A stretch of DNA of 25,942 bases. It comes from a virus (Duplodnaviria; Caudoviricetes). The position numbers and the translations under genes are program-made. The stretch is taken from the IMG/VR virus record IMGVR_UViG_3300044990_000860, positions 1-25,942 of that record; one strand, written 5' to 3'. Positions 5,234-25,942 of this stretch are shown here, one piece after another; positions within the stretch are counted from its first letter, which is position 1, and each line of letters starts with the position of its first letter. The notes under the pieces are model-generated. The model had not been told where the DNA came from and ran no database searches. It saw only the letters and a program-made list of their open reading frames with translations.

Positions 5234-8200
5234 GTGTTATACCCAGTGTTGCGTTGGTGAAGTCTTGTACAATATCTACGTTAGTTACTCTAGCACTGCT
5301 AATGAATATTTCATCAGGTTGGCATTTGATTTCAAACAAATCGCCAAACTGTGCTTGAGTATTTAAAGGAGTTATAACCACGCTGGCTATAACCGGTGCT
5401 AATCTTATATGTATGTAAGCAGCAAGTTCGGTAAAGAAAAAGCTTTGTCCAAAGTCCCAGTTAATCAAACTAAAGTATTCGTTAATACTTCCTATAACAA
5501 GACTTTTAATTTCATTGTCAGTTACTGTGGTGCCCGATGCTTTGATGACTTTGAAACGCACTTGTAGTTCTTGAGGAGCTTGATTTCCAAATATTACTTT
5601 ATATTTCACTGGATGCCATATTATTTGGTCGGTCATGGTTTTAAATGCTTCCAAGCCTGAAAAAACACTGCGCAGTTGTTCACTAGTAGGCGCTTGTGGT
5701 TCAGCACTGGCTGGAGCATTTGTTGCTATCCAGTTTCTCAAATCTGTATCGTATGTGCTTGTAAGCACATATATGTCAACAATATTCATTATAGCTGGAT
5801 CAATACGTTGCTCGTTGGGAGCATAATGATCATAAATCCATTTTAAACCACGGCGGCCTATTTTCATTTTCCAGCTATTGGTCACAAGCAGCAACTCGCC
5901 GCTGGGACCCCGGCGTATCCACTGATAAAATTGTCCAGTTGTCATCACATATGCAACTTCACCTTGACTCCAAAGGGGATCACTTGCAGGTGGCAGTTGA
6001 TTGGCATATGTATAAATGCGGCTTGTGGGAATAACACGTGGCTGCCAATATTCGTAACCATCACTTGTGGGAACTAAAGTCCAAAATATCATACGCTGTG
6101 CGATGTTTTCTGGGTCTACAATTATATCATATTGGTTGGGATTTAGTGGCAAGCCCAGGGGATTGTTTTCACCACTTACATAGACCTTGGTGTTATCCAC
6201 ATAACCATCAGGATAAATGTCTTGCCCTAGTATGCGCCAAATGTAGTTGGCGCCCAAAGCTGGGGCGGGAGTTGTAGTTGTGGGATCTTGTGGGGCAGTG
6301 TTGATGTCTAATACTGTTATACTGTCTTGTTTGACATCACCGGTGTTTATGTCAATTGTTTTGTATTGAGTGTTGTATAAAAATCTAACATCTCGCACAC
6401 TTTCAAAAACATATCGCTGTGCGCGAGCTGTGAATGTCCATGTGCTGCCAGTAAACGCAGCCAACAGCAACCAACTGCTATCACGATTTGTGTTGGTAGT
6501 GTCACCGCTGTTAGATAAACTCCAAGCACCGGGATTGATATTGCCGCTGGTAATAACTTTCCATTGCGCATTTAGATAATCATATCGAATCCCAAATTTG
6601 TTTTTTCTATCCAAAGCAGTTTGAATATCTGAGGTTTCTTGGGCATTGAACAAGGGATTCCAACTGGCAATTATTTCCGTGGGCTGGTACCCAATAGTGT
6701 TGGCTATAAGAGGTGGAGTAATGCTTATGGCTCCCTGGCCAGTGCTTAACAAGCCATTGTTGGTTCCTACACCTTGTTGGTTGACAGCAGTGACTTCACA
6801 CCATGTGTTGTTGGCATAAAATAAAGCGCCGGGAGCAACTACGTGAAACACACTGCTTACCGAAACGTTGCTACCTACAGTTTGGGCAACATTTCCTTGA
6901 TACAATGCACCAGTGCTAATTTGACTGCTGCTTGTTGCAGTTTGCCAAACAGTTGTGCCTTGACTTTGCAAGTTAGCTCGCGGATAGTAATAATAATAAA
7001 AGTCTTTGACTTCTTGAGCTACACGTTGCTGTCCTTGACTGCCAGTCAGCATGGGTTGAATGTAATTGGTTACAAGAGCTAGACTGTTTTGAGTGTTAGC
7101 CACACTGACTTCCACTTTGTTGGTGCCAGGCTCGTCATACAAGATGCCATCGGTGCTGACAAGCTTTATGTTTTGATAAGTGCCGGTGGGATCGTTTATG
7201 TTAAGAAAGCGGCTTTGTCCACTGTATGTGCGATTTACAGCTTTGACTTTCAGTGCTTGTGTGTTAGTCAAGGGGAATACATTATAGTCTTCGCCGGTGA
7301 CCATGCGGTCTTGAGTATAGTAGTTTTGGCTAGCTGCAAGTTGTATTTGTTGATTGCTGGCACGCAGTTGGCTATTTGCCACTGTTGTTTGCAAACTTGC
7401 GGATAATACCAAGTTGAATGAGTTGTTGAGGTTGTCATTGTAAGTAAATGCAAAGTTAATATTTTGCATGTCAACAGGACGTACTTGATAAGCCAAGCCA
7501 TTGCTTTGGCGATATGTCACACGTATGAAGCCAGTTGGCACGCTACCAAAGTTTCCATCAGCAAATCTTATGCTAATTTGGTCTTGGCCCTGGCTGTCTC
7601 GTGTGTAAACACTGTATATATCTCGAACATTTTTGTTAAGACTGTTATAGATAACATTGAATCCATTCACACTGCTTACAGCAGTCCAATCTTTCAACAC
7701 ATTGCCTTGACTGTCAACATTTTGCACCCACACATCAATATTGTTGATGCCGTTGACGTTTACATCCAGCACACGATTGGCAACAGGATAGTCCAACTGA
7801 TAATCTGTGTACCCCTGTTGTCCTTGTTTAAACATTAGGAAAAATCCAGTATTTGCACTGGTATTACCCAGTCCATCGCTGCGGTAAATCAAATACCAAC
7901 TGTTTGTGGGATTGGGAGCCCGTTCGTAAAATATACCACTAGTTGATGTTGCAACACTTGTAATATCTGCAATGGAAAAGTCTGGATTGACCAGTTCAAA
8001 GTCCATGGTATTGCCAGCAGTGTTACTGGTGTAGGGAAACACACTACTACCATTGTTGTTGGTATTCATTTGGTAAAGTTCGGTGGCAATACCGTTTACA
8101 ATGCCACTTTTAACTGGATTTCCAAAATAGTTGTTGCTGTTTAAACTGCTGTTGATGACTAAGATAAACTGTTCCAACCAATCAGCATTGTTTTGATCAT

Positions 8201-10617: not shown

Positions 10618-10644
10618 TGACTACAGTGCATCACGGGGCTTGAA

Positions 10645-12237
10645 ATGCTTCACGTTTCCGCTACAGTGCCCAACGCCCGCAAGGTGTATCAGCTGTGCGT
10701 CAAGCACCGCTTGCCCGTGCCGGATGCGTTGGTTAGCGTGCTTAACAGCAACACGCAGGCTTGCGATATCCCGGGCTTTAGTTTTCAGCTCAAGGAATAT
10801 CAAGCGCATGGCGTGGCTTATCTCGAACGCTGGGACGGCAACGTGCTGCTGGCTGATGAGCCCGGACTGGGCAAGACCGCGCAGGTCATGGTGTATGCTT
10901 GGCAAAACCGCCGCTTTCCCATGCTGGTGGTGCTGCCCAAGACCTTGCTCTTGAACTGGCGGCGGGAAATCACGCTCATGCTGGGCAGCCAGCTCAGCGT
11001 GCTGATTGTGGGCTTTGTGCCCAGCAAAAAGCGTCAGGCGCAGCTTAGGGCACAATGGCCGCATGTGAGTTTCAGCCGTGTACCGCAGCCGGGTTATGAT
11101 GTAACCCTTATCAACTACGACATTGTCGAGCGCAACCTGGCTGCACTGGAAGCGCAAAACTACGATTATGTTGTGGCTGATGAAAGCCACAAGATCAAAA
11201 ATCCCAAAGCCCATCGCACGCAGGCTTTTTTGCGGCTGGTGACAGGACGTGAGGAAATTCCCCGGCAGCGTGGCCAGTTTCGTCCGGTGCATGATGCTGT
11301 GCCGCATGTGACGTTCTGCACGGGCACGCCCATGTTGAATCGGCCTGTTGAGCTGTGGACAACTGTGAACACGTTGGCTGGCTGGGTGCCGCAGTTTGAA
11401 AACTTTTTTAACTTTGCTTCTAAGTTCTGCAATGCCCATAAGACCCGCTGGGGCTGGGACTTTAACGGCAGCAGCAACGAAGCCGAGATCAACACGCTGT
11501 TGACTGAAACTTGCATGCTGCGTCGTCTCAAGCAGGACGTGCTCCGGGATTTGCCGCCCAAGACTTTTGTTACGGTTCCCCTGGAGTTTGATCGCGCTGA
11601 GTATGATGCTGTAGCAGCCGCTTTTGAGGGCTCGGGCGCTTGGAAGCAGGGCATGGAAACCCTGGTTCGGCATGGCGGCAATGCTGCCAAGAGCGACGAA
11701 GCCATCGTGGCGCTGGGCAAGTGCCGTGAGATTGCTGCATATGCCAAGCTGGACAATGCCGTGGAATGGATCATGGACTTTGTCGAGCAGGGTGAAAAGC
11801 TTGTGGTGTTTGCACATCACCAGCGCATGGTTGATCAAGTTGCTGAACGTCTCGCAGCGGCTAATATCGGCGTGCGAGTGATTCGCGGCGGTGTTAGCTT
11901 GGAGCAGCGTGCCCAGGCAGCGCAGGACTTCCAAACTCGCAATGATGTGCAGGTGATTGTCTTGAACATTGCCAGTGCAGGCTTTGGCATCACGCTCACT
12001 GCGGCGCGGGCGTGTGCGTTTCTCCAGCTGCCTTGGACCCCGGGTGATCTCATCCAAGCTGCGGATCGTGTTCACCGCATCGGGCAGCAGGACAACGTCA
12101 CTGTTTACAATCTTGTTGCCGAGGGCACTGTGGAAGAGGACATAGGTGAACTGATCATGAGCAAGGCGGCTGTGAGCAATGCAGTTGTTGATGGCGGCGC
12201 CAACCGCGAGTTGGCTGATTTGAATCTGGGCCAGTAA
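10645..12237 (+). CDS. SNF2-family ATPase, SMARCAL1/ZRANB3-like annealing helicase core (530 aa)
   Basis: LLADEPGLGKT (motif I), VVADESHKIKN (II), TGTPMLNRPVELW (III), MLRRLKQDVLRDLPPK, GFGITLTAA (V), WTPGDLIQAADRVHRIGQ (VI). Confidence 0.93.
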   Translation: MLHVSATVPNARKVYQLCVKHRLPVPDALVSVLNSNTQACDIPGFSFQLKEYQAHGVAYLERWDGNVLLADEPGLGKTAQVMVYAWQNRRFPMLVVLPKTLLLNWRREITLMLGSQLSVLIVGFVPSKKRQAQLRAQWPHVSFSRVPQPGYDVTLINYDIVERNLAALEAQNYDYVVADESHKIKNPKAHRTQAFLRLVTGREEIPRQRGQFRPVHDAVPHVTFCTGTPMLNRPVELWTTVNTLAGWVPQFENFFNFASKFCNAHKTRWGWDFNGSSNEAEINTLLTETCMLRRLKQDVLRDLPPKTFVTVPLEFDRAEYDAVAAAFEGSGAWKQGMETLVRHGGNAAKSDEAIVALGKCREIAAYAKLDNAVEWIMDFVEQGEKLVVFAHHQRMVDQVAERLAAANIGVRVIRGGVSLEQRAQAAQDFQTRNDVQVIVLNIASAGFGITLTAARACAFLQLPWTPGDLIQAADRVHRIGQQDNVTVYNLVAEGTVEEDIGELIMSKAAVSNAVVDGGANRELADLNLGQ

Positions 12238-12247
12238 AGGAGGAAAA

Positions 12248-12415
12248 ATGGTCGCTTTATTTCTACTGCTGTTTGTTTGGATTCCCTTAGCTATCAGTGT
12301 CACACGAGTTTTGGGCTTGCCCATGCTGGTAGTTGCTATGCTTTGGTTGGGGTTTGTGATCTTATTTGCCCCAATCAACTACTTTTTTGGACCTTTTATC
12401 ATTATAGGACCGTAA
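12248..12415 (+). CDS. Small very hydrophobic membrane protein (55 aa), not in ORF track
   Basis: AAGGAGG RBS, then MVALFLLLFVWIPLAISVTRVLGLPMLVVAMLWLGFVILFAPINYFFGPFIIIGP-stop; fills the gap between the helicase and the 195-aa ORF. Confidence 0.75.
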   Translation: MVALFLLLFVWIPLAISVTRVLGLPMLVVAMLWLGFVILFAPINYFFGPFIIIGP

Positions 12416-19383: not shown

Positions 19384-21180
19384 TTGACTATAACCGCTGC
19401 AATTAAAATCAAATACTTAACGAACCGTGAACTCTTAGAACAAATCCACGCTAGCAAAAATACCTATTGCAGCTACTTGGAAAATATTTACAGCAGTTTT
19501 GATATAATAACTCAAGATTTAAACTTGATAAATCTTGAAACTCTTGAGCAAGCTAAAATACGCAAAGCTGAACTGCAATCACAACGTTTACGTAAAGAAG
19601 CGCAAGCTCGTGGTGAAAAAAATCCTGTATATCGAGTAGATCCTGACAGCTTGGATATTGAACAGGTTGTGGTTAGATTAATGACTTATGATCATATTCC
19701 ACCTCATCCCATCAAACACGAAATGGGAAAAACTGTTGCAGAACGCCATATTAAAATAAACTTTCCAGCTTTCCAACATTTTATTTGGACCAATGACTGT
19801 TGGGTATGTGTGGGCAAAAGTCACTGGCGTGGTGGTTTACAAAACGGAGAGTTTTGTAATAACCATGGTTACATTACACCCAAGCTTGCCATGATGTTTA
19901 TGAAACTTGTGGAAAAATACAGTAAAAAAGGCAACTGGAGGGGCTATTGCGTTGATGATCAGACTCAAGCTCTAACTCAAAGGGGTTGGTTAAACACTAA
20001 TGAAATTAACGAAACGGATATTATTTTAAGTTACGAAACAGGAGATCTCAAGTGGAGCAAAATCAAATCTATTTACCGAGGTGATTTTGATGGTCTGATG
20101 CACAAAGTAACTTGTCGGAGCATTGATAGTTTGATTACACCTAATCATAAAATAGTTACTGCTCGTGGCTTAATACCTATTGAACAAATTTGTGAAAATG
20201 ATAAAATAGTTGTCATGGGCAATGCTGAAAAAGGAAATGATGTAAGCCAATATGCAGATTCTTTGGTAGAATTAGCGGGCTGGATAATAACAGAAGGCTG
20301 CTATGATTATGATAGGCAAGGCAATATAAAAAGCATTGCTATCTATCAAAATCCCGGAGCCAACGCTGATAAAATCCGTAAAGCCCTGGAAACTCAAAAC
20401 TTTACTTTCACTGAAAACCTGCGCAAAAATAACATTTGCTTTAGAATTTGGAAGTCAGATAGTAAAACTTTGGAAAACTTATTCCCTAATAAAAACATCC
20501 CTATGAGTTTTATTCTGGAACTTACTAATGATCAACGTGAACTGCTGTTGCAAACATTAATTGCCGGTGATGGATGGAATCGCAAAACCAGTGTTAGCTG
20601 GGTGCAAAAAGATCAAGGACGAACAGACATGTTTCAAGCTCTTTGCACTTTATTAGGTAAGAAAACAAATAGTCATAAACATACTCATGTAAGTTTTGGT
20701 AAAGAAACAGAATGTATTACCACAAATGTTTTCAGTAATCGAGCTAATAACACAACCGGGGCTTGTTTAAACTTACATGGCGGCAAACGGAATGGTAGAA
20801 GTCATCCTGGACGTGGTAAAGCCATGCATCCTAACGAACCAACAACATATTACCAGGGACAAGTATGGTGTCCAGAAACAGAATATGGTTGCTTTGTGGC
20901 ACGACGTAATGGAAAAGTTTATCTAACTGGCAATACATATAATGAAGAAATGCAAGGACAAGCTTTGTTGCAGCTAAGTCAGATAGGACTACAGTTTGAC
21001 GAAAGTCGCAGTGAAAATCCATTTGCATATTATACGTCCGCAGTGCAGAATTCATTTACTCGAATACTAAATACTGAAAAACGAAACCAAAACATTCGTG
21101 ATGACTTGTTAATAATGCACGGATCTACTCCCAGCTACACAAGACAAACAGAAAACGAAATAGCACAAAAAACTGATTAA
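19384..21180 (+). CDS. gp55: Late-transcription sigma factor (T4 gp55-like) precursor containing an intein; 598 aa, 269 aa after splicing
   Basis: N-terminal YLTNRELL; NWRGY|TYNEEMQGQALLQL...FDESRSENPFAYYT...NSFTRILNTEKR matches gp55-family motifs once the intein is removed. TATAAATA promoters and gp47/gp46 are adjacent, as in T4. Confidence 0.85.
   Translation: MTITAAIKIKYLTNRELLEQIHASKNTYCSYLENIYSSFDIITQDLNLINLETLEQAKIRKAELQSQRLRKEAQARGEKNPVYRVDPDSLDIEQVVVRLMTYDHIPPHPIKHEMGKTVAERHIKINFPAFQHFIWTNDCWVCVGKSHWRGGLQNGEFCNNHGYITPKLAMMFMKLVEKYSKKGNWRGYCVDDQTQALTQRGWLNTNEINETDIILSYETGDLKWSKIKSIYRGDFDGLMHKVTCRSIDSLITPNHKIVTARGLIPIEQICENDKIVVMGNAEKGNDVSQYADSLVELAGWIITEGCYDYDRQGNIKSIAIYQNPGANADKIRKALETQNFTFTENLRKNNICFRIWKSDSKTLENLFPNKNIPMSFILELTNDQRELLLQTLIAGDGWNRKTSVSWVQKDQGRTDMFQALCTLLGKKTNSHKHTHVSFGKETECITTNVFSNRANNTTGACLNLHGGKRNGRSHPGRGKAMHPNEPTTYYQGQVWCPETEYGCFVARRNGKVYLTGNTYNEEMQGQALLQLSQIGLQFDESRSENPFAYYTSAVQNSFTRILNTEKRNQNIRDDLLIMHGSTPSYTRQTENEIAQKTD
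19948..20934 (+). mobile_element. Intein with LAGLIDADG homing endonuclease (329 aa, Cys1...Gly-Asn / Thr+1)
   Basis: Block A CVDDQTQALTQRGW; block B ITPNHKI; LAGLIDADG-like LAGWIITEG and LQTLIAGDG; blocks F/G VWCPETEYGCFVARRNGKVYLTGN followed by Thr. Confidence 0.92.
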
Positions 21181-21286: not shown

Positions 21287-22309
21287 ATGACAAATCGCAC
21301 CCCCCAACTTGATAACATCGCAGCTTTCACCGATCTGCATTTTGGAATGAAAAACAACAGTCGCGAGCATAACATGCAATGCGAACAGTTTTTGTTGTGG
21401 TTTATAGAACAGGCTCAAAAACAAGGTTGTAAAACATGTGTGTTTCTAGGCGACTGGCATCATGTACGCAGTGCCATTAATATTTCCACGCTGAACTACA
21501 GTGTTGCCGGCTTGCGCTTGCTTAGTGCCGCTTTTGATGATGTATTTTTTATCATTGGCAATCATGATTTATATTTCCGTGACAAACTGGAAATACACAG
21601 CATACCTTACATTCAAGAATTTGATAACATTCACTTGATTGATAAAATCACCACAGTGGGCGACCATGCTTTTGTTCCCTGGCTGGTGGGAGATGAATGG
21701 AAAAAGGTTGTTGATATTTCTGTTCCCTATATTTGGGGTCATTTTGAACTGCCAAGGTTCAAAATGAATGCCATGGTGGAAATGCCCGACCATGGCCACC
21801 TAAATGGCAATCATTTAGCCAAGCAAAAATACGTTTTCAGTGGTCACTTTCACAAACGTCAAGTTCAAGGCAATGTGCATTATATTGGTAATGCATTTCC
21901 CCACAACTACAGTGATGTTTGGGATGATGAGCGTGGCATGATGTTTTGGCAAAAAAATCATGAGCCACGTTATGTTGCATGGCCACAAGCTCCACGATAC
22001 CGTGTGTTAACTCTGCAAGATCTTCTTTATGATCCTCAGCGTCATTTGCAACCACAAAATCACGTAAGAGTGCAAATTCCTCAAGACACTGACTATCTTG
22101 ACATGACTTTCCTACGTGAAGTATTACAAGCAGCTTGGCCAGTTAATGAACTGGCGTTTCAAACCGCTGTGAGTAATGAAGTTGCAGAACTTCAAGATGA
22201 AGCAATAGACTTTCAAAGTGTTGACACTATTGTTATCAGTCACTTAAACAGTATTGAAAGCAAAACTATTGACTGTAAAAAACTAGTGGAAATTTATCAG
22301 AGTCTATAA
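21287..22309 (+). CDS. gp47: Recombination endonuclease subunit, gp47/Mre11/SbcD-like (340 aa)
   Basis: Metallophosphoesterase motifs FTDLHFG, LGDWHH, IGNHD, GHFE, SGHFH. Confidence 0.93.
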   Translation: MTNRTPQLDNIAAFTDLHFGMKNNSREHNMQCEQFLLWFIEQAQKQGCKTCVFLGDWHHVRSAINISTLNYSVAGLRLLSAAFDDVFFIIGNHDLYFRDKLEIHSIPYIQEFDNIHLIDKITTVGDHAFVPWLVGDEWKKVVDISVPYIWGHFELPRFKMNAMVEMPDHGHLNGNHLAKQKYVFSGHFHKRQVQGNVHYIGNAFPHNYSDVWDDERGMMFWQKNHEPRYVAWPQAPRYRVLTLQDLLYDPQRHLQPQNHVRVQIPQDTDYLDMTFLREVLQAAWPVNELAFQTAVSNEVAELQDEAIDFQSVDTIVISHLNSIESKTIDCKKLVEIYQSL

Positions 22310-24081
22310 TGCTGCAATATCACAATGTAGAAATACGCAACTTCCTTAGTGTTGGTACTGTTCCACAAACAGTGGATTTAACTCGCAGCGGATTTACTTT
22401 GGTGTTAGGGGAAAACCTTGACATGGGTGGTCAAGGCAACCGTAATGGCGTGGGAAAAACCACGCTGTTAAATGCCATTAGCTATGCACTGTACGGCCAA
22501 GCTCTAAGCAATATCAAAAAAGACAACTTGGTCAATCGCATCAACAGCAAAAACATGAGCGTTTGTTTGGAGTTCAGTCGCGATGGTCAAACATATCGCA
22601 TTGAACGCGGCCGTAAACCAGCTTTCTTTAGATTTATTGTTAACGATCAAATGGTCAACAGTCCTGATACTGATGAAGCTCAAGGTGAAAACCGCGAGAC
22701 TCAAAAGCAAGTGGAAGCTGTGCTGGGCATGACGCATACTATGTTCTGCAACATTGTGGCGTTGAACACTTACACCCTGCCATTTTTAAGTCAAGGTGCA
22801 GGCAAGCAACGGGAAATCATCGAAGAACTCTTGATGATTACCATGCTTAGCACCAAGGCTGAAACGCTAAAGGAACGCATTAAAGAAACACGCATACAAC
22901 AAGATCAAGAAGATTTCAAAATAAAAACCATTGAAGCCAGCAATGAAAAGATTGCTCGCACACTTGCTGATCTCAATACTCGCAGTGAAAAATGGCAAGT
23001 TCAACATCAAGACAAAATAAATGACATTCAACAAGCTCTTGACAGCATGAGCCAGTTAGATATTGAAGTTGAAATACAAGCACATAGAGATCGAGTAGAT
23101 GTTGACAAGCTCAAGTCTGCACGGAACGAGCAACAGCGTTTGCTTACAGGAAAAAATCGTCTTGTAACTAACTTGCAAACTCAGCTAGACAAAAACATGG
23201 CAAACTATCGTCAAGTATTAGACGCACAATGCCCCATGTGTCAGCAAGGGCTAAGTGATCACAATCACAAAGAAATTCTGGGTAATCTTGAGCAACAGAT
23301 TTTGCAGTTGGATCAACAACTGCAACCGTTAAATCTAGAAGTTAAACAACATCAAGAATACATTCAGGAACTAGCGCAAGCAGAACGTAGTTTTGATATA
23401 CCCAACACTTTATACAATAATCTTGAACAAGCTTTGAGCCATCTCAACAGCATGGAAAACCTTCAGCAGGAAATGTCACGGCTGCAACAGGAAACCAATC
23501 CCTATCTTGATCAACAACACAGTTTGACAGCCACACTGCAACCTATAAACCACAACATACTGAATCAACTCAATAGTCAACGTGAACACCAAGAGTTTTT
23601 GTTGAAGTTGCTTACCAACAAAGAAAGTTTCATCCGCAAAAAGATTATTGATCAAAATCTTGCCTATCTCAATACACGTTTGCAAGATTATCTAAACCGT
23701 GTGGGCCTACCTCACCAAGTGAAGTTTCAAAATGATCTTGGCGTGGAAATTACTCACTTGGGAACAGAAATGGATTTTGATCAACTCAGCCGCGGCGAAC
23801 GCACCCGTTTAATTCTCAGCTTGAGCTGGAGTTTTCGAGACATTTGGGAAAACAACAACCAACCCATTAACTTGATTTTTGTTGACGAGTTACTTGATCA
23901 AGGACTGGATCCTCAGGGCTTGGAAAAAAGTGTGGAAATCCTCAAAGCCCATAGTCGAGACAGAAACAAAAATGTATTTCTAGTCAGTCATCGAGAAGAA
24001 CTTGTGTCACGAGTCAGTAACGTCCTTACAGTTATCAAAGAGGATAACTTTTCAAGATTTGAATGGGGTTATGAAGGTTGA
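22309..24081 (+). CDS. gp46: Recombination ATPase subunit, gp46/Rad50/SbcC-like (590 aa)
   Basis: Walker A NGVGKTT, coiled coils with CPMC zinc hook, signature LSRGE, Walker B IFVDELLD, H-loop VSH; TAATG coupling to gp47. Confidence 0.94.
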   Translation: MLQYHNVEIRNFLSVGTVPQTVDLTRSGFTLVLGENLDMGGQGNRNGVGKTTLLNAISYALYGQALSNIKKDNLVNRINSKNMSVCLEFSRDGQTYRIERGRKPAFFRFIVNDQMVNSPDTDEAQGENRETQKQVEAVLGMTHTMFCNIVALNTYTLPFLSQGAGKQREIIEELLMITMLSTKAETLKERIKETRIQQDQEDFKIKTIEASNEKIARTLADLNTRSEKWQVQHQDKINDIQQALDSMSQLDIEVEIQAHRDRVDVDKLKSARNEQQRLLTGKNRLVTNLQTQLDKNMANYRQVLDAQCPMCQQGLSDHNHKEILGNLEQQILQLDQQLQPLNLEVKQHQEYIQELAQAERSFDIPNTLYNNLEQALSHLNSMENLQQEMSRLQQETNPYLDQQHSLTATLQPINHNILNQLNSQREHQEFLLKLLTNKESFIRKKIIDQNLAYLNTRLQDYLNRVGLPHQVKFQNDLGVEITHLGTEMDFDQLSRGERTRLILSLSWSFRDIWENNNQPINLIFVDELLDQGLDPQGLEKSVEILKAHSRDRNKNVFLVSHREELVSRVSNVLTVIKEDNFSRFEWGYEG

Positions 24082-24581
24082 GTTTTCACTATGTTGCGTA
24101 TTACATCGCGATTAACAGTGAACAAGTCATTGAAATCCGTGACAATATAATGTTGATACCTAGCATAATTGCCTATTTGCAGTTGTGCGTGCCACTTTTC
24201 ATGGAACACAGCGAAACTACCTTGTCTGTTAATACGGAATACCACCACACTGAAATCTTGGCTGGTAATGTTTTCTTCCAGTTGTTTGATCCAGCCGTCT
24301 AATAGAGGTATTTTTTCATTTTTCAACAGTTTGCTAAAAGGAAACTCTTTGTAAAACTTGCTTTCAATAACCAAACCTCTCATGTCACTGGGTGGAATGA
24401 TGTCAGCACGAAAACTAGCTATTTGTCCTTGATCCATTAGTTGTTGGCGATGATTGTTCGCACCTCCTAAAAATGCTCCACTGTTCGGAACACGAATAAA
24501 CTTGGCCTGATAAAGTTCAGTTAAAAAGTTAGCGATTATACGCTCGCCTGTATTACCTTTGTTTTTGCCTGCACTGGGCAT
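24069..24581 (-). CDS. PD-(D/E)XK nuclease, Holliday-junction-resolvase-like (170 aa)
   Basis: KNKGNTGERIIANFL...RVPNSGAF...ADII...VIESKFYK; convergent 13-nt overlap with gp46; TTAAATA (late-promoter variant) and AGGTG upstream. Confidence 0.78.
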   Translation of the reverse strand: MPSAGKNKGNTGERIIANFLTELYQAKFIRVPNSGAFLGGANNHRQQLMDQGQIASFRADIIPPSDMRGLVIESKFYKEFPFSKLLKNEKIPLLDGWIKQLEENITSQDFSVVVFRINRQGSFAVFHEKWHAQLQIGNYARYQHYIVTDFNDLFTVNRDVIRNIVKTQPS

Positions 24582-24613: not shown

Positions 24614-24642
24614 TTGACAAACTTACAAGAACATACAATAAT
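24614..24642 (+). promoter_or_regulatory. Putative sigma70 promoter TTGACA-N17-AATAAT
   Basis: TTGACA 24614-24619, AATAAT 24637-24642; implies the downstream ORF starts at ATG 24665 (AGGA upstream) rather than 24611. Confidence 0.6.
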
Positions 24643-24664
24643 GACTACAGGAATCGCAATAAAC

Positions 24665-25474
24665 ATGAGTCATTCAGCATATAATCGCAACAACACTTGG
24701 CAAAAGACTTTTGAGTTGACTGCAACCGAAAGTCAGTCCAGAACTTTAGGTCATTTCATTAAAAATGAACTGGCTTATTATCAAGCTTTGAGTCACATGT
24801 TGGGAATACGCATGCGTGCGTTTCCCGAAGACTTTGTGCAAGTTAGCACAAACGTTCGCCAACTATGGTTGTTTGCTGCACAGTTTTCTGTCAGTAGCGA
24901 CAAACTCAAAACTCAGCCTCGCAAAACTTGGCCTCAGCAAATTGAGCACTGCTGGTCCACTGCTTACAATAATAAAAATCAATGGCAAATGAGCAGTGGA
25001 ACAGAAAGTGTCATGAATATTCTTGCTACAACGTGTCATTTACATCCAGATGTGCGTCGTAACATGGCAGAGGAAATACTAAATCAAGTTTGTCATCAAG
25101 CAGAAATCCTGCATGCTGCACAAAAGACTGAGGAACTCCGCACACCTGTTCAAACTCTTCCGCAACATGAATGGTCCACAAAACGCCATGTGCAAATTCC
25201 CCGGCAGTTGGTTAGCATTGCATATAATGCCATGAAAAACCGTAGTGAAATTACCATTCCCTATTGCCGTGAGCCTTTGCTGCTAAATGAACAAAATATT
25301 CAAGACACTCGTTGGGATATTTTGGTTGTCAGCCAAGTTGATCCAGACTTTACTAACTCAGAAAACTTGCAAATCTCTTTGAGAACCACTAGAGATAGAT
25401 ACCTTATTAAATATCGTGACGAAACTAAAAAACCCTGGGCACAATCTAGAAAAATTACACCAGGTCTAAGATAG
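24665..25474 (+). CDS. Hypothetical protein (~269 aa) resembling the TnpB/Cas12 WED-REC half, lacking RuvC and Zn finger
   Basis: The ORF itself is well supported (long, with its own promoter). KTFELTATESQSRTLGHFIKNELAYYQAL resembles the TnpB N-terminal K.f.L.pt.eQ...L.......yN.al pattern; KRHVQIP...ITIPY resembles WED strands. No GIDxG or CxxC motifs. The homology is judged by eye only. Confidence 0.5.
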   Translation: MSHSAYNRNNTWQKTFELTATESQSRTLGHFIKNELAYYQALSHMLGIRMRAFPEDFVQVSTNVRQLWLFAAQFSVSSDKLKTQPRKTWPQQIEHCWSTAYNNKNQWQMSSGTESVMNILATTCHLHPDVRRNMAEEILNQVCHQAEILHAAQKTEELRTPVQTLPQHEWSTKRHVQIPRQLVSIAYNAMKNRSEITIPYCREPLLLNEQNIQDTRWDILVVSQVDPDFTNSENLQISLRTTRDRYLIKYRDETKKPWAQSRKITPGLR

Positions 25475-25900
25475 GCACACAACAGGCACCTGCCGTTAAC
25501 ATTTAAGTCTGCATACTGGCAATATAAGTGACGAAGTAAGTTCGTTAGTGCCCAAGGATAGAAATATCATACTGCACTCCAAGGATAATAGCTTAGATAC
25601 ACCTTGGCCAGGAAAAGTAAAGTAAAAAGGATCACAGCTCTGAGGGACACTTCATCTGTGATGCTGTTGTTGGTGGCTGAATATCAACAACAACAGCTTG
25701 GACAACCATAACCGCGTGGATTGGTAACAATCAAAATCCGCATCTACAAGCAGGGAAATAGGCACGCCGCCCGCTGCTCTTGGACAGAGCTAGGATGCAT
25801 TCAGCATGGCTGAGCAACTCACATGATGCTCCGCGACCCATGATTTTTCCGGGTCGGGAAAATCATGGCATCACAATCTACATGAGTGCTAAAAAAGCAT
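25475..25900 (+). ncRNA. Candidate large structured non-coding RNA, family unassigned
   Basis: No ORF >=60 aa in an otherwise gene-dense genome; at least eight stem-loops including GNRA loops (25557-25568, 25719-25732), a 10-bp stem 25663-25697, a 13-bp stem 25838-25868 and a 7-bp loop/distal pairing. Ends are approximate. Confidence 0.62.
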
Positions 25901-25942
25901 ATGTTATATCATAACTTATAAAAAAGAATAACAACTTGCTTT

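What the first reader, a model, noticed from the sequence alone, without database searches (positions are those of the whole stretch)
25475..25900. Multi-helix, pseudoknotted non-coding RNA candidate
Helices read directly: TGACGAA/TTCGTTA (25529-25547); GATA-GAAA-TATC (25557-25568); CCAAGG/CCTTGG (25579-25607); ATCACAG/CTGTGAT with inner TGAGG/CTTCA (25631-25662); GCTGTTGTTG/CAACAACAGC (25663-25697); GATTG-GTAA-CAATC (25719-25732); GCTCT/AGAGC (25776-25790); CCATGATTTTTCC/GGGAAAATCATGG (25838-25868) flanked by TGATGC/GCATCA. The loop GCTGAAT (25676-25682) is exactly complementary to ATTCAGC (25799-25805), a candidate long-range pseudoknot. GNRA loops and G-U pairs favour the plus strand. I could not match it to tRNA, tmRNA, RNase P or intron cores, so it may be a new large RNA class, whether or not it binds the upstream protein.
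Basis: partly seen in the sequence, partly recalled or inferred. Interest (0 to 1): 0.8.

Follow-up and report, generated by a model that had tools for sequence, protein, structure and literature searches.

The report
Double-pseudoknot RNA of giant phages
Uncultured giant bacterial viruses carry, at one fixed genome site, a conserved stretch of about 380 letters predicted to fold as an intricate RNA that matches no family in the Rfam catalogue, and it may act as the primer that starts copying of the viral genome.

Summary
The structure is real. Window 25511-25891 (+) folds better than shuffles (z -3.9). It has no Rfam hit.

The contig is a T4-like jumbo phage. The same core sits in the gp46-to-baseplate-hub interval in 25 of 38 non-redundant relatives. 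It carries interchangeable 5' domains, one being the known Polynucleobacter-1 motif (RF01718).

The oddest feature is a 6-8-nt direct repeat flanking the last hairpin. Both copies change together (44 of 46 regions), and pairing does not explain it.

The upstream ORF is predicted to be a RuvC-less TnpB/Cas12f half, but linkage is loose: both 11, RNA only 14, gene only 4. No guide target was found.

Downstream, DNA-type GNA mini-hairpins are enriched about 25-fold. My leading guess (0.35) is therefore a folded R-loop primer at a replication origin; rivals are a protein-binding scaffold, a ribozyme and a TnpB guide. Transcription is not shown.

This scan noted the protein and a neighbouring RNA before, on other genomes.

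The parts
25511..25891 (+). Conserved structured RNA candidate (long form), about 380 nt
   Evidence: Conservation boundaries in alignments A2, A6, A9; z -3.93; covariation
25516..25611 (+). 5' domain closed by P1 (25516-20/25607-11), holding hairpins 25529-47, 25549-77 and 25579-607; replaced by other domains, including Polynucleobacter-1, in sister forms
   Evidence: P1 94.5% paired, 4 of 5 pairs change on both sides
25631..25697 (+). Two hairpins; the loop of the second holds the 5' strand of pseudoknot 1 (25676-82)
25799..25805 (+). 3' strand of pseudoknot 1
   Evidence: 94% paired, 5 of 6 pairs compensatory; own-locus complement of 6 or more Watson-Crick pairs in 38 of 41
25714..25767 (+). 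Pseudoknot 2 (25714-18 with 25763-67), the signature of the whole family
   Evidence: 100% paired in 14 rows; found in 41 of 46 regions with 17 different 5' strands, 1 of 920 shuffles, 64 of 1554 cross-locus swaps
25741..25797 (+). Core helices 25741-45/25793-97 and 25750-54/25770-74, plus hairpin 25776-90
   Evidence: 92.9%, 89.1% and 82.7% paired
25821..25885 (+). Terminal module: direct repeat ACATGA (25821-26, 25880-85) flanking the last stem-loop (core 25844-61); the two copies co-vary across the family
   Evidence: among the top three repeats in 44 of 46 regions (counted by eye); anchored 7-mer pattern 28 of 46 versus 10 of 920 shuffles
25927..25942 (.). Start of the downstream perfect-hairpin tract, cut by the contig end; it continues in identical contigs L001/L002
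25473..25489 (+). Variable leader with two AGGCAC copies; similar motifs recur upstream of many homologues and form a tandem array in L058
24641..25474 (+). ORF predicted to be a RuvC-less REC/WED half of TnpB/Cas12f; true start probably 24665
24614..24642 (+). sigma-70-type promoter match (11 of 12) upstream of the ORF
   Evidence: on identical L002; similar -35/-10 in homologues by eye
21287..24581 (.). Fixed neighbours: gp47-like and gp46-like nuclease subunits (+) and RusA-like resolvase (-)

Best explanation
This is a conserved, compensatorily paired double-pseudoknot element at one fixed site in a large group of T4-like giant phages, likely transcribed as an RNA that would act in cis as a folded primer at a replication origin. 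Shown: the fold, its fixed position, interchangeable 5' domains, the co-varying direct repeat and the enrichment of DNA-type mini-hairpins just downstream. Inferred: an early sigma-70 transcript folds; its 3' end stays hybridised to the template as an R-loop; the displaced and opened strands expose C-GNA-G hairpins that load primase or helicase. The two identical repeat copies would mark the 3' end that is processed or re-aligned on the template, or would be twin sites for a dimeric initiator. The RuvC-less TnpB half is at most an accessory partner in one sub-clade.
For: Fold. RNA rather than DNA for the core: GNRA loops on the sense strand at 1.32 per kb inside versus 0.05 per kb in flanking control DNA. 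Fixed site: pseudoknot 2 in 25 of 38 non-redundant complete gp46-to-hub intervals versus 6 of 140 control stretches; one profile hit in the complete 354,680-bp G001. In the 170 nt after the RNA, GNA-triloop hairpins occur at 4.0 per kb (30 in 7.5 kb, both strands, 29 closed by C-G) versus 0.16 per kb in controls; 32 of 44 loci have a DNA-type loop; the tract is 53-75% AT. The four gene-only gaps L061, L062, L063 and L073 have hairpins but no GNA triloop. Neighbours are recombination and replication genes. Structured motifs of 223-349 nt tied to replicons have precedent in ARRPOF, GEBRO and PAGEV (PMC5737381 passages). ColE1 RNA II, T4 R-loop origins and the stability of d(C-GNA-G) hairpins are recalled, not from a call.
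Against: Nothing tests priming directly. The window's own lineage has no DNA-type loop by the strict test (L002). Read on the minus strand, several downstream hairpins are followed by T runs and could simply terminate the convergent hub operon. Four of 15 non-redundant complete intervals with the ORF lack the core, and it was not found elsewhere in two such partial contigs, 12-13% complete. PA5oct and Phosso have long non-coding gaps at this site but no profile hit or anchored repeat on the expected strand apart from one weak match. Invariant unpaired nucleotides fit catalysis or protein binding equally well.
Confidence: 0.35

Rival explanations
1. A trans-acting large ncRNA scaffold (GOLLD/ROOL-like in role) that binds a homodimeric phage or host protein through the two identical repeat copies placed on either side of the terminal stem.
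For: Repeat spacing varies continuously, mostly 49-68 nt and up to 91, so the copies meet through folding rather than by helical phase. Ornate fold with GNRA loops. PA5oct, a related phage, makes abundant ncRNAs (PMC7318152 passages).
Against: None of the four PA5oct ncRNAs maps to the syntenic gap at about 76-77 kb. A trans RNA would not need the fixed site or the downstream DNA-type hairpins.
Confidence: 0.25
2. A ribozyme or self-processing RNA: the two pseudoknots build a catalytic core that cuts or joins at the two identical sites.
For: Two nested pseudoknots with invariant unpaired residues. Identical sites are what one active site acting twice would need.
Against: No Rfam ribozyme or intron match. 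No consistent internal complement of the repeat: best match 7 of 7 in only 1 of 28, 4-6 of 7 in the rest.
Confidence: 0.15
3. The omega-like guide RNA of the upstream RuvC-less TnpB half, forming a non-cutting RNA-guided DNA binder.
For: The ORF is predicted to have the REC/WED fold. The RNA lies directly downstream and is probably co-transcribed in the window's clade; both are present in 11 of 38 intervals.
Against: Core without the gene in 14 intervals and gene without the core in 4. Complete G001 has the core and no gene (positive controls 3 of 3). A 92-96-aa ORF and a terminator-like hairpin separate them in L068-L072. 3' and 5' flanks have no match above shuffle level (11-12 nt versus 11.3-11.9) in 174 kb of the own lineage.
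Confidence: 0.12
4. The whole element folds as single-stranded DNA (recombination, packaging or origin signal) and is not a functional RNA.
For: Covariation cannot separate ssDNA from RNA (PMC5737381 passage). No clean transcript evidence.
Against: Sense-strand GNRA loops about 26-fold enriched inside, while DNA-type loops are concentrated downstream. Frequent G-U pairs. Strand asymmetry of folding.
Confidence: 0.06

Closest known systems
Polynucleobacter-1 RNA motif (Rfam RF01718; Weinberg et al. 2010, PMC2864571)
   Same: Nine of 32 scanned loci carry it at the same genomic site, directly 5' of a core with the same pseudoknot 2 (8 of the 9), pseudoknot 1 and repeat-flanked terminal hairpin.
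   Different: The window has no RF01718 match and a different 5' domain. RF01718 (141 positions) covers none of the pseudoknotted core or terminal module, so it appears to be the 5' third of a larger RNA.
Large ornate phage and bacterial ncRNAs (GOLLD, ROOL, HEARO, OLE)
   Same: Size class, multiple covarying helices and pseudoknots, phage location.
   Different: No Rfam match. It has a fixed core-genome locus, swappable 5' domains and a co-varying direct repeat.
Replicon-linked structured elements: ARRPOF, GEBRO, PAGEV (PMC5737381 passages); ColE1 RNA II and T4 R-loop origins (recalled)
   Same: A long structured non-coding element followed by an AT-rich, hairpin-bearing tract near replication and recombination genes.
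   Different: No sequence or covariance-model match; priming untested; skew inconclusive.
TnpB omega-RNA (ISDra2, PDB 8H1J/8EXA), Cas12f and TldR guide RNAs
   Same: The upstream ORF is predicted to share the REC/WED fold; the RNA lies 3' of it and is pseudoknotted.
   Different: The protein ends before RuvC; the locus is not mobile; gene and RNA occur apart; no guide target was found.

Membership tests
Any Rfam 15 family (ROOL, GOLLD, HEARO, OLE, ARRPOF, group I/II, RNase P, tmRNA, small ribozymes) | Covariance-model match at gathering score | tested here: not met
   0 hits in the window; 3 chance hits at E 0.21-9.3; none in long-form homologues L008, L068, L080, L090, L092, L094, L097, L104, L108
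Polynucleobacter-1 (RF01718) | RF01718 match in the window's RNA | tested here: not met
Polynucleobacter-1 (RF01718) | Same locus and shared downstream core (extended family) | tested here: met
   9 RF01718 loci lie in the gp46-to-hub interval; pseudoknot 2 in 8 of 9 and the repeat in 9 of 9. The sequence-profile link to the window is weak, E 1e-4 to 4e-4 at the 3' end.
TnpB omega-RNA / OMEGA system | Partner protein with REC/WED lobe | tested here: met
TnpB omega-RNA / OMEGA system | RuvC domain in the partner (active, or inactivated as in TldR) | tested here: not met
   277 aa; the model ends after the WED strands; the 150 listed relatives are at most 345 aa
TnpB omega-RNA / OMEGA system | Obligate gene-RNA linkage | tested here: not met
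   11 both, 14 core only, 4 gene only, 9 neither, of 38; G001
TnpB omega-RNA / OMEGA system | 3' guide with a DNA target | tested here: inconclusive
   No match above chance in 174 kb of the own lineage; host and the rest of the genome not available
RNA-primed origin (ColE1 RNA II / T4 R-loop type) | Upstream promoter reading through the element | tested here: inconclusive
   An 11 of 12 sigma-70 match about 870 nt upstream, no + strand terminator between by the scan; transcript not shown
RNA-primed origin (ColE1 RNA II / T4 R-loop type) | Downstream unwinding region with ssDNA hairpin signals | tested here: inconclusive
   GNA-triloop hairpins about 25-fold enriched family-wide, absent by the strict test in the window's own lineage; may be terminators
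RNA-primed origin (ColE1 RNA II / T4 R-loop type) | Persistent RNA-DNA hybrid and RNA-to-DNA transition | not testable with these tools
   Needs infection or in vitro work
RNA-primed origin (ColE1 RNA II / T4 R-loop type) | Strand-composition switch at the site | tested here: inconclusive
   Local GC-skew troughs near the element in G005 (about 39 kb, RNA at 38 kb) and G001 (120-130 kb, RNA at 133.5 kb); in G005 this coincides with a gene-strand change and G001 is otherwise near-monotonic

The most novel reading that the evidence does not exclude
A widespread, undescribed class of modular giant-phage RNA (one double-pseudoknot core, several interchangeable 5' domains) that starts phage DNA replication as a self-positioning R-loop primer, using a co-varying direct repeat to set or re-align its 3' end. 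In one sub-clade it may have recruited a RuvC-less TnpB half as an RNA-held DNA-unwinding module.
Probability: 0.2. Interest if true: 0.92.

Novelty: new variant of a known kind. Interest (0 to 1): 0.72.

Why it matters
It defines a large structured RNA family at a core locus of abundant aquatic giant phages and gives Polynucleobacter-1, an orphan motif since 2010, a larger structural context. The co-varying direct repeat is a constraint that base pairing within the molecule does not explain, so it points to a templating, processing or dimer-binding mechanism that can be tested with paired mutations. If the origin reading holds, it locates a replication origin for these phages and adds a new kind of folded primer RNA. 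The adjacent RuvC-less TnpB half offers a test of whether the recognition lobe alone can be reused.

Tried and rejected
Known RNA classes: ARAGORN and five Rfam scans gave only RF01718 in relatives. An exact 16-nt scan of viral contigs gave 37 stretches, of which 9 were true homologues, all from the close clade.

Cultured phages: neither the RNA nor the ORF family (PA5oct and Phosso) matched. PA5oct and Phosso have 1-1.5 kb non-coding gaps at the syntenic site but no profile hit.

Expression: two RNA runs held only low-depth contigs (depth 2-3.8). One covers the ORF end and leader; one covers the RNA's 5' domain in a relative. Contigs cannot show strand, ends or level, so this is no evidence either way.

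Guide hypothesis: no target above chance. Mutual pairing of the two repeat copies was rejected because several variants, such as GGATGAA, GCATAAA and AGATAAT, are not self-complementary. GC skew was inconclusive. The cross-locus control for pseudoknot 1 was loose (723 of 1554 swaps reach 6 pairs versus 38 of 41 own), so one search is the better evidence for it.

Literature: searches found no description of this core or of a RuvC-less TnpB in jumbo phages. Term searches in two 2026 language-model preprints and PMC7824862 had no relevant hit.

Full report
Observation. The + strand of 25475-25900 folds at z -3.93 with 0 of 100 shuffles as stable, and the - strand at z -1.50. No ORF of 60 aa or more lies beyond 25482. 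ARAGORN finds nothing. Rfam 15 gives no hit at gathering score and three chance hits at E<=10.

Context. The contig is a T4-like jumbo myophage: baseplate genes, an intein-bearing late sigma factor, gp47- and gp46-like nucleases and a RusA-like resolvase. The resolvase's best cultured matches are Phosso, SCTP-2 and PA5oct-group phages at 33-36% identity. In contigs with a 100% identical ORF the element is followed by two hairpins and a convergent baseplate-hub gene.

Structure. Homologues were fetched through the upstream ORF and, independently, through the hub gene (the best 80 of 582 confirmed relatives were kept). I aligned 14 of the 29 distinct long-form sequences later collected. On that alignment 82.3% of cells pair against 70.6% in shuffles, and 43 of 71 pairs change on both sides against 28 (0 of 500 shuffles). 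Slid controls reach 35-47%. The structure was drawn from these sequences, so these controls lean in its favour. One helix (P3, 28.6%) and parts of others are misaligned by MAFFT. A second pseudoknot, 25714-18/25763-67, is 100% paired with 4 of 5 compensatory. P1 and two core helices score 94.5%, 92.9% and 89.1%. Sense-strand GNRA loops occur at 1.32 per kb inside the elements and 0.05 per kb in flanking DNA, which favours RNA over ssDNA. Conservation runs from about 25511 to 25891.

A wider family. Distant phages carry shorter or different elements at the same site. In 46 hand-picked regions an anchored test finds pseudoknot 2 in 41, with 17 different 5' strands. It appears in 1 of 920 shuffles, and only 64 of 1554 cross-locus swaps still pair. 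A pseudoknot-1-type complement of 6 or more Watson-Crick pairs is found in 38 of 41, although its swap control is loose (723 of 1554). In an unbiased tally of the hub-anchored loci, 25 of 38 non-redundant complete gp46-to-hub intervals hold pseudoknot 2, against 6 of 140 control stretches. Redundant and open-ended loci were dropped before that count. Nine of 32 loci scanned carry Rfam Polynucleobacter-1 directly 5' of this core, and 8 of those 9 pass the pseudoknot-2 test. RF01718 therefore looks like one of several interchangeable 5' domains. The link between forms rests on position, topology and covariation; by sequence profile it is weak (E 1e-4 to 4e-4 at the 3' end). A fourth form (L112, L122, L143, L151) shares only the terminal module.

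The unexplained feature. A 6-10-nt direct repeat flanks the last stem-loop (window ACATGA at 25821-26 and 25880-85). It is among the three longest repeats in 44 of 46 regions (counted by eye; L094 and L110 are the exceptions). A strict anchored 7-mer pattern finds it in 28 of 46 regions against 10 of 920 shuffles. Both copies change together through many variants (ACATGA, ATCAGAA, AACGAA, ACCAGAAT, AGATGAA, GGATGAA, AGATAAT, GGATAAT, GCATAAAG). Several variants are not self-complementary, a full internal complement exists in 1 of 28, and spacing varies continuously from 49 to 91 nt.

Mechanism. In the 170 nt after the RNA, GNA-triloop hairpins occur at 4.0 per kb on both strands against 0.16 per kb in controls. 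32 of 44 loci have a DNA-type loop, and the tract is 53-75% AT. From recall, C-GNA-G mini-hairpins are unusually stable in DNA and occur in single-strand replication and promoter signals, ColE1 RNA II is a folded primer, and T4 origins use R-loops. PMC5737381 (passages) ties ARRPOF, GEBRO and PAGEV to replicons and warns that ssDNA and RNA motifs are hard to tell apart. With the fixed site beside gp46/47 and a resolvase, my leading reading is a folded R-loop primer at an origin (0.35). Against it: the window's own lineage lacks the DNA-type loops by the strict test, the hairpins may terminate the convergent operon, skew is inconclusive, and some relatives lack the core here. Rivals are a trans-acting scaffold with twin sites for a dimer (0.25), a ribozyme acting at both sites (0.15), a TnpB guide (0.12) and an ssDNA-only element (0.06). 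Transcription is not shown.

Prior knowledge. Papers seen: PMC2864571 supplement passages listing Polynucleobacter-1 as a probable RNA with 16 members; PMC7318152 passages, four PA5oct ncRNAs, none at the syntenic gap; PMC10691335 passages on inactivated and C-terminally truncated TnpBs, none shown for jumbo phages; term searches in 10.64898/2026.09.22.753630 and 10.64898/2026.10.21.760802 and PMC7824862 with no relevant hit. Other papers were seen only as search listings. The preprints' supplements could not be seen and may list this RNA as an unnamed cluster. Earlier notes of this scan reported the same protein family and, in two cases, a neighbouring structured RNA on other genomes. One called the RNA an independent module, which prompted the hub-anchored test that confirmed it. 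The link to Polynucleobacter-1, the second pseudoknot as family signature, the co-varying repeat and the downstream hairpin bias were not in the notes I was shown.

Verdict. A real, widespread large RNA fold that is absent from Rfam, with one strange and testable constraint; the mechanism is open. New variant of a known kind, interest 0.72.

Noticed in passing
window 24641-25474 (+): Stand-alone predicted REC/WED half of TnpB/Cas12f at a fixed locus behind a sigma-70-type promoter; 164 clusters at 50% identity with a conserved KRHxQ motif.
   Followed up: yes
L058 626-725 (+): Three to four tandem copies of a 24-nt unit that ends in the RNA's 5' terminal motif; shorter AGGCAC/AGGCTC repeats precede the RNA in many loci (possible processing or start signal).
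   Followed up: no
L068 4369-4659, L069 4402-4689, L070 4375-4659, L072 4389-4667 (+): A 92-96-aa ORF between the TnpB-half gene and the RNA; also present where only one of the two remains (L091, L092, L096, L099).
   Followed up: partly
L112, L122, L143, L151 (about 400 nt downstream of the hub genes, - strand): A different non-Rfam structured element at the same locus that shares only the repeat-flanked terminal hairpin.
   Followed up: partly
L049 4480-5990 and L047 4990-6000 (PA5oct, Phosso): 1-1.5 kb gaps with no real ORF and strong local folding (z down to -9 in PA5oct) at the syntenic site; RNase HI lies next to the Phosso gap. No profile hit; these cultured phages could be test systems.
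   Followed up: partly
L075 4500-5275 (+) and L157 5540-6740 (-): Long non-coding intervals at the same site with partial motifs but no pseudoknot-2 match.
   Followed up: no
window 19384-21180 (+): Late sigma factor gene interrupted by a probable intein with a LAGLIDADG-like domain.
   Followed up: no
window 10621-12378 (-): A 585-codon open frame antisense to the SNF2 helicase gene 10645-12237 (+).
   Followed up: no
L002 about 5400-5640 (-): A gp51-like frame overlaps the end of the hub gene in nearly all loci; earlier scan notes propose a -1 frameshift here.
   Followed up: no
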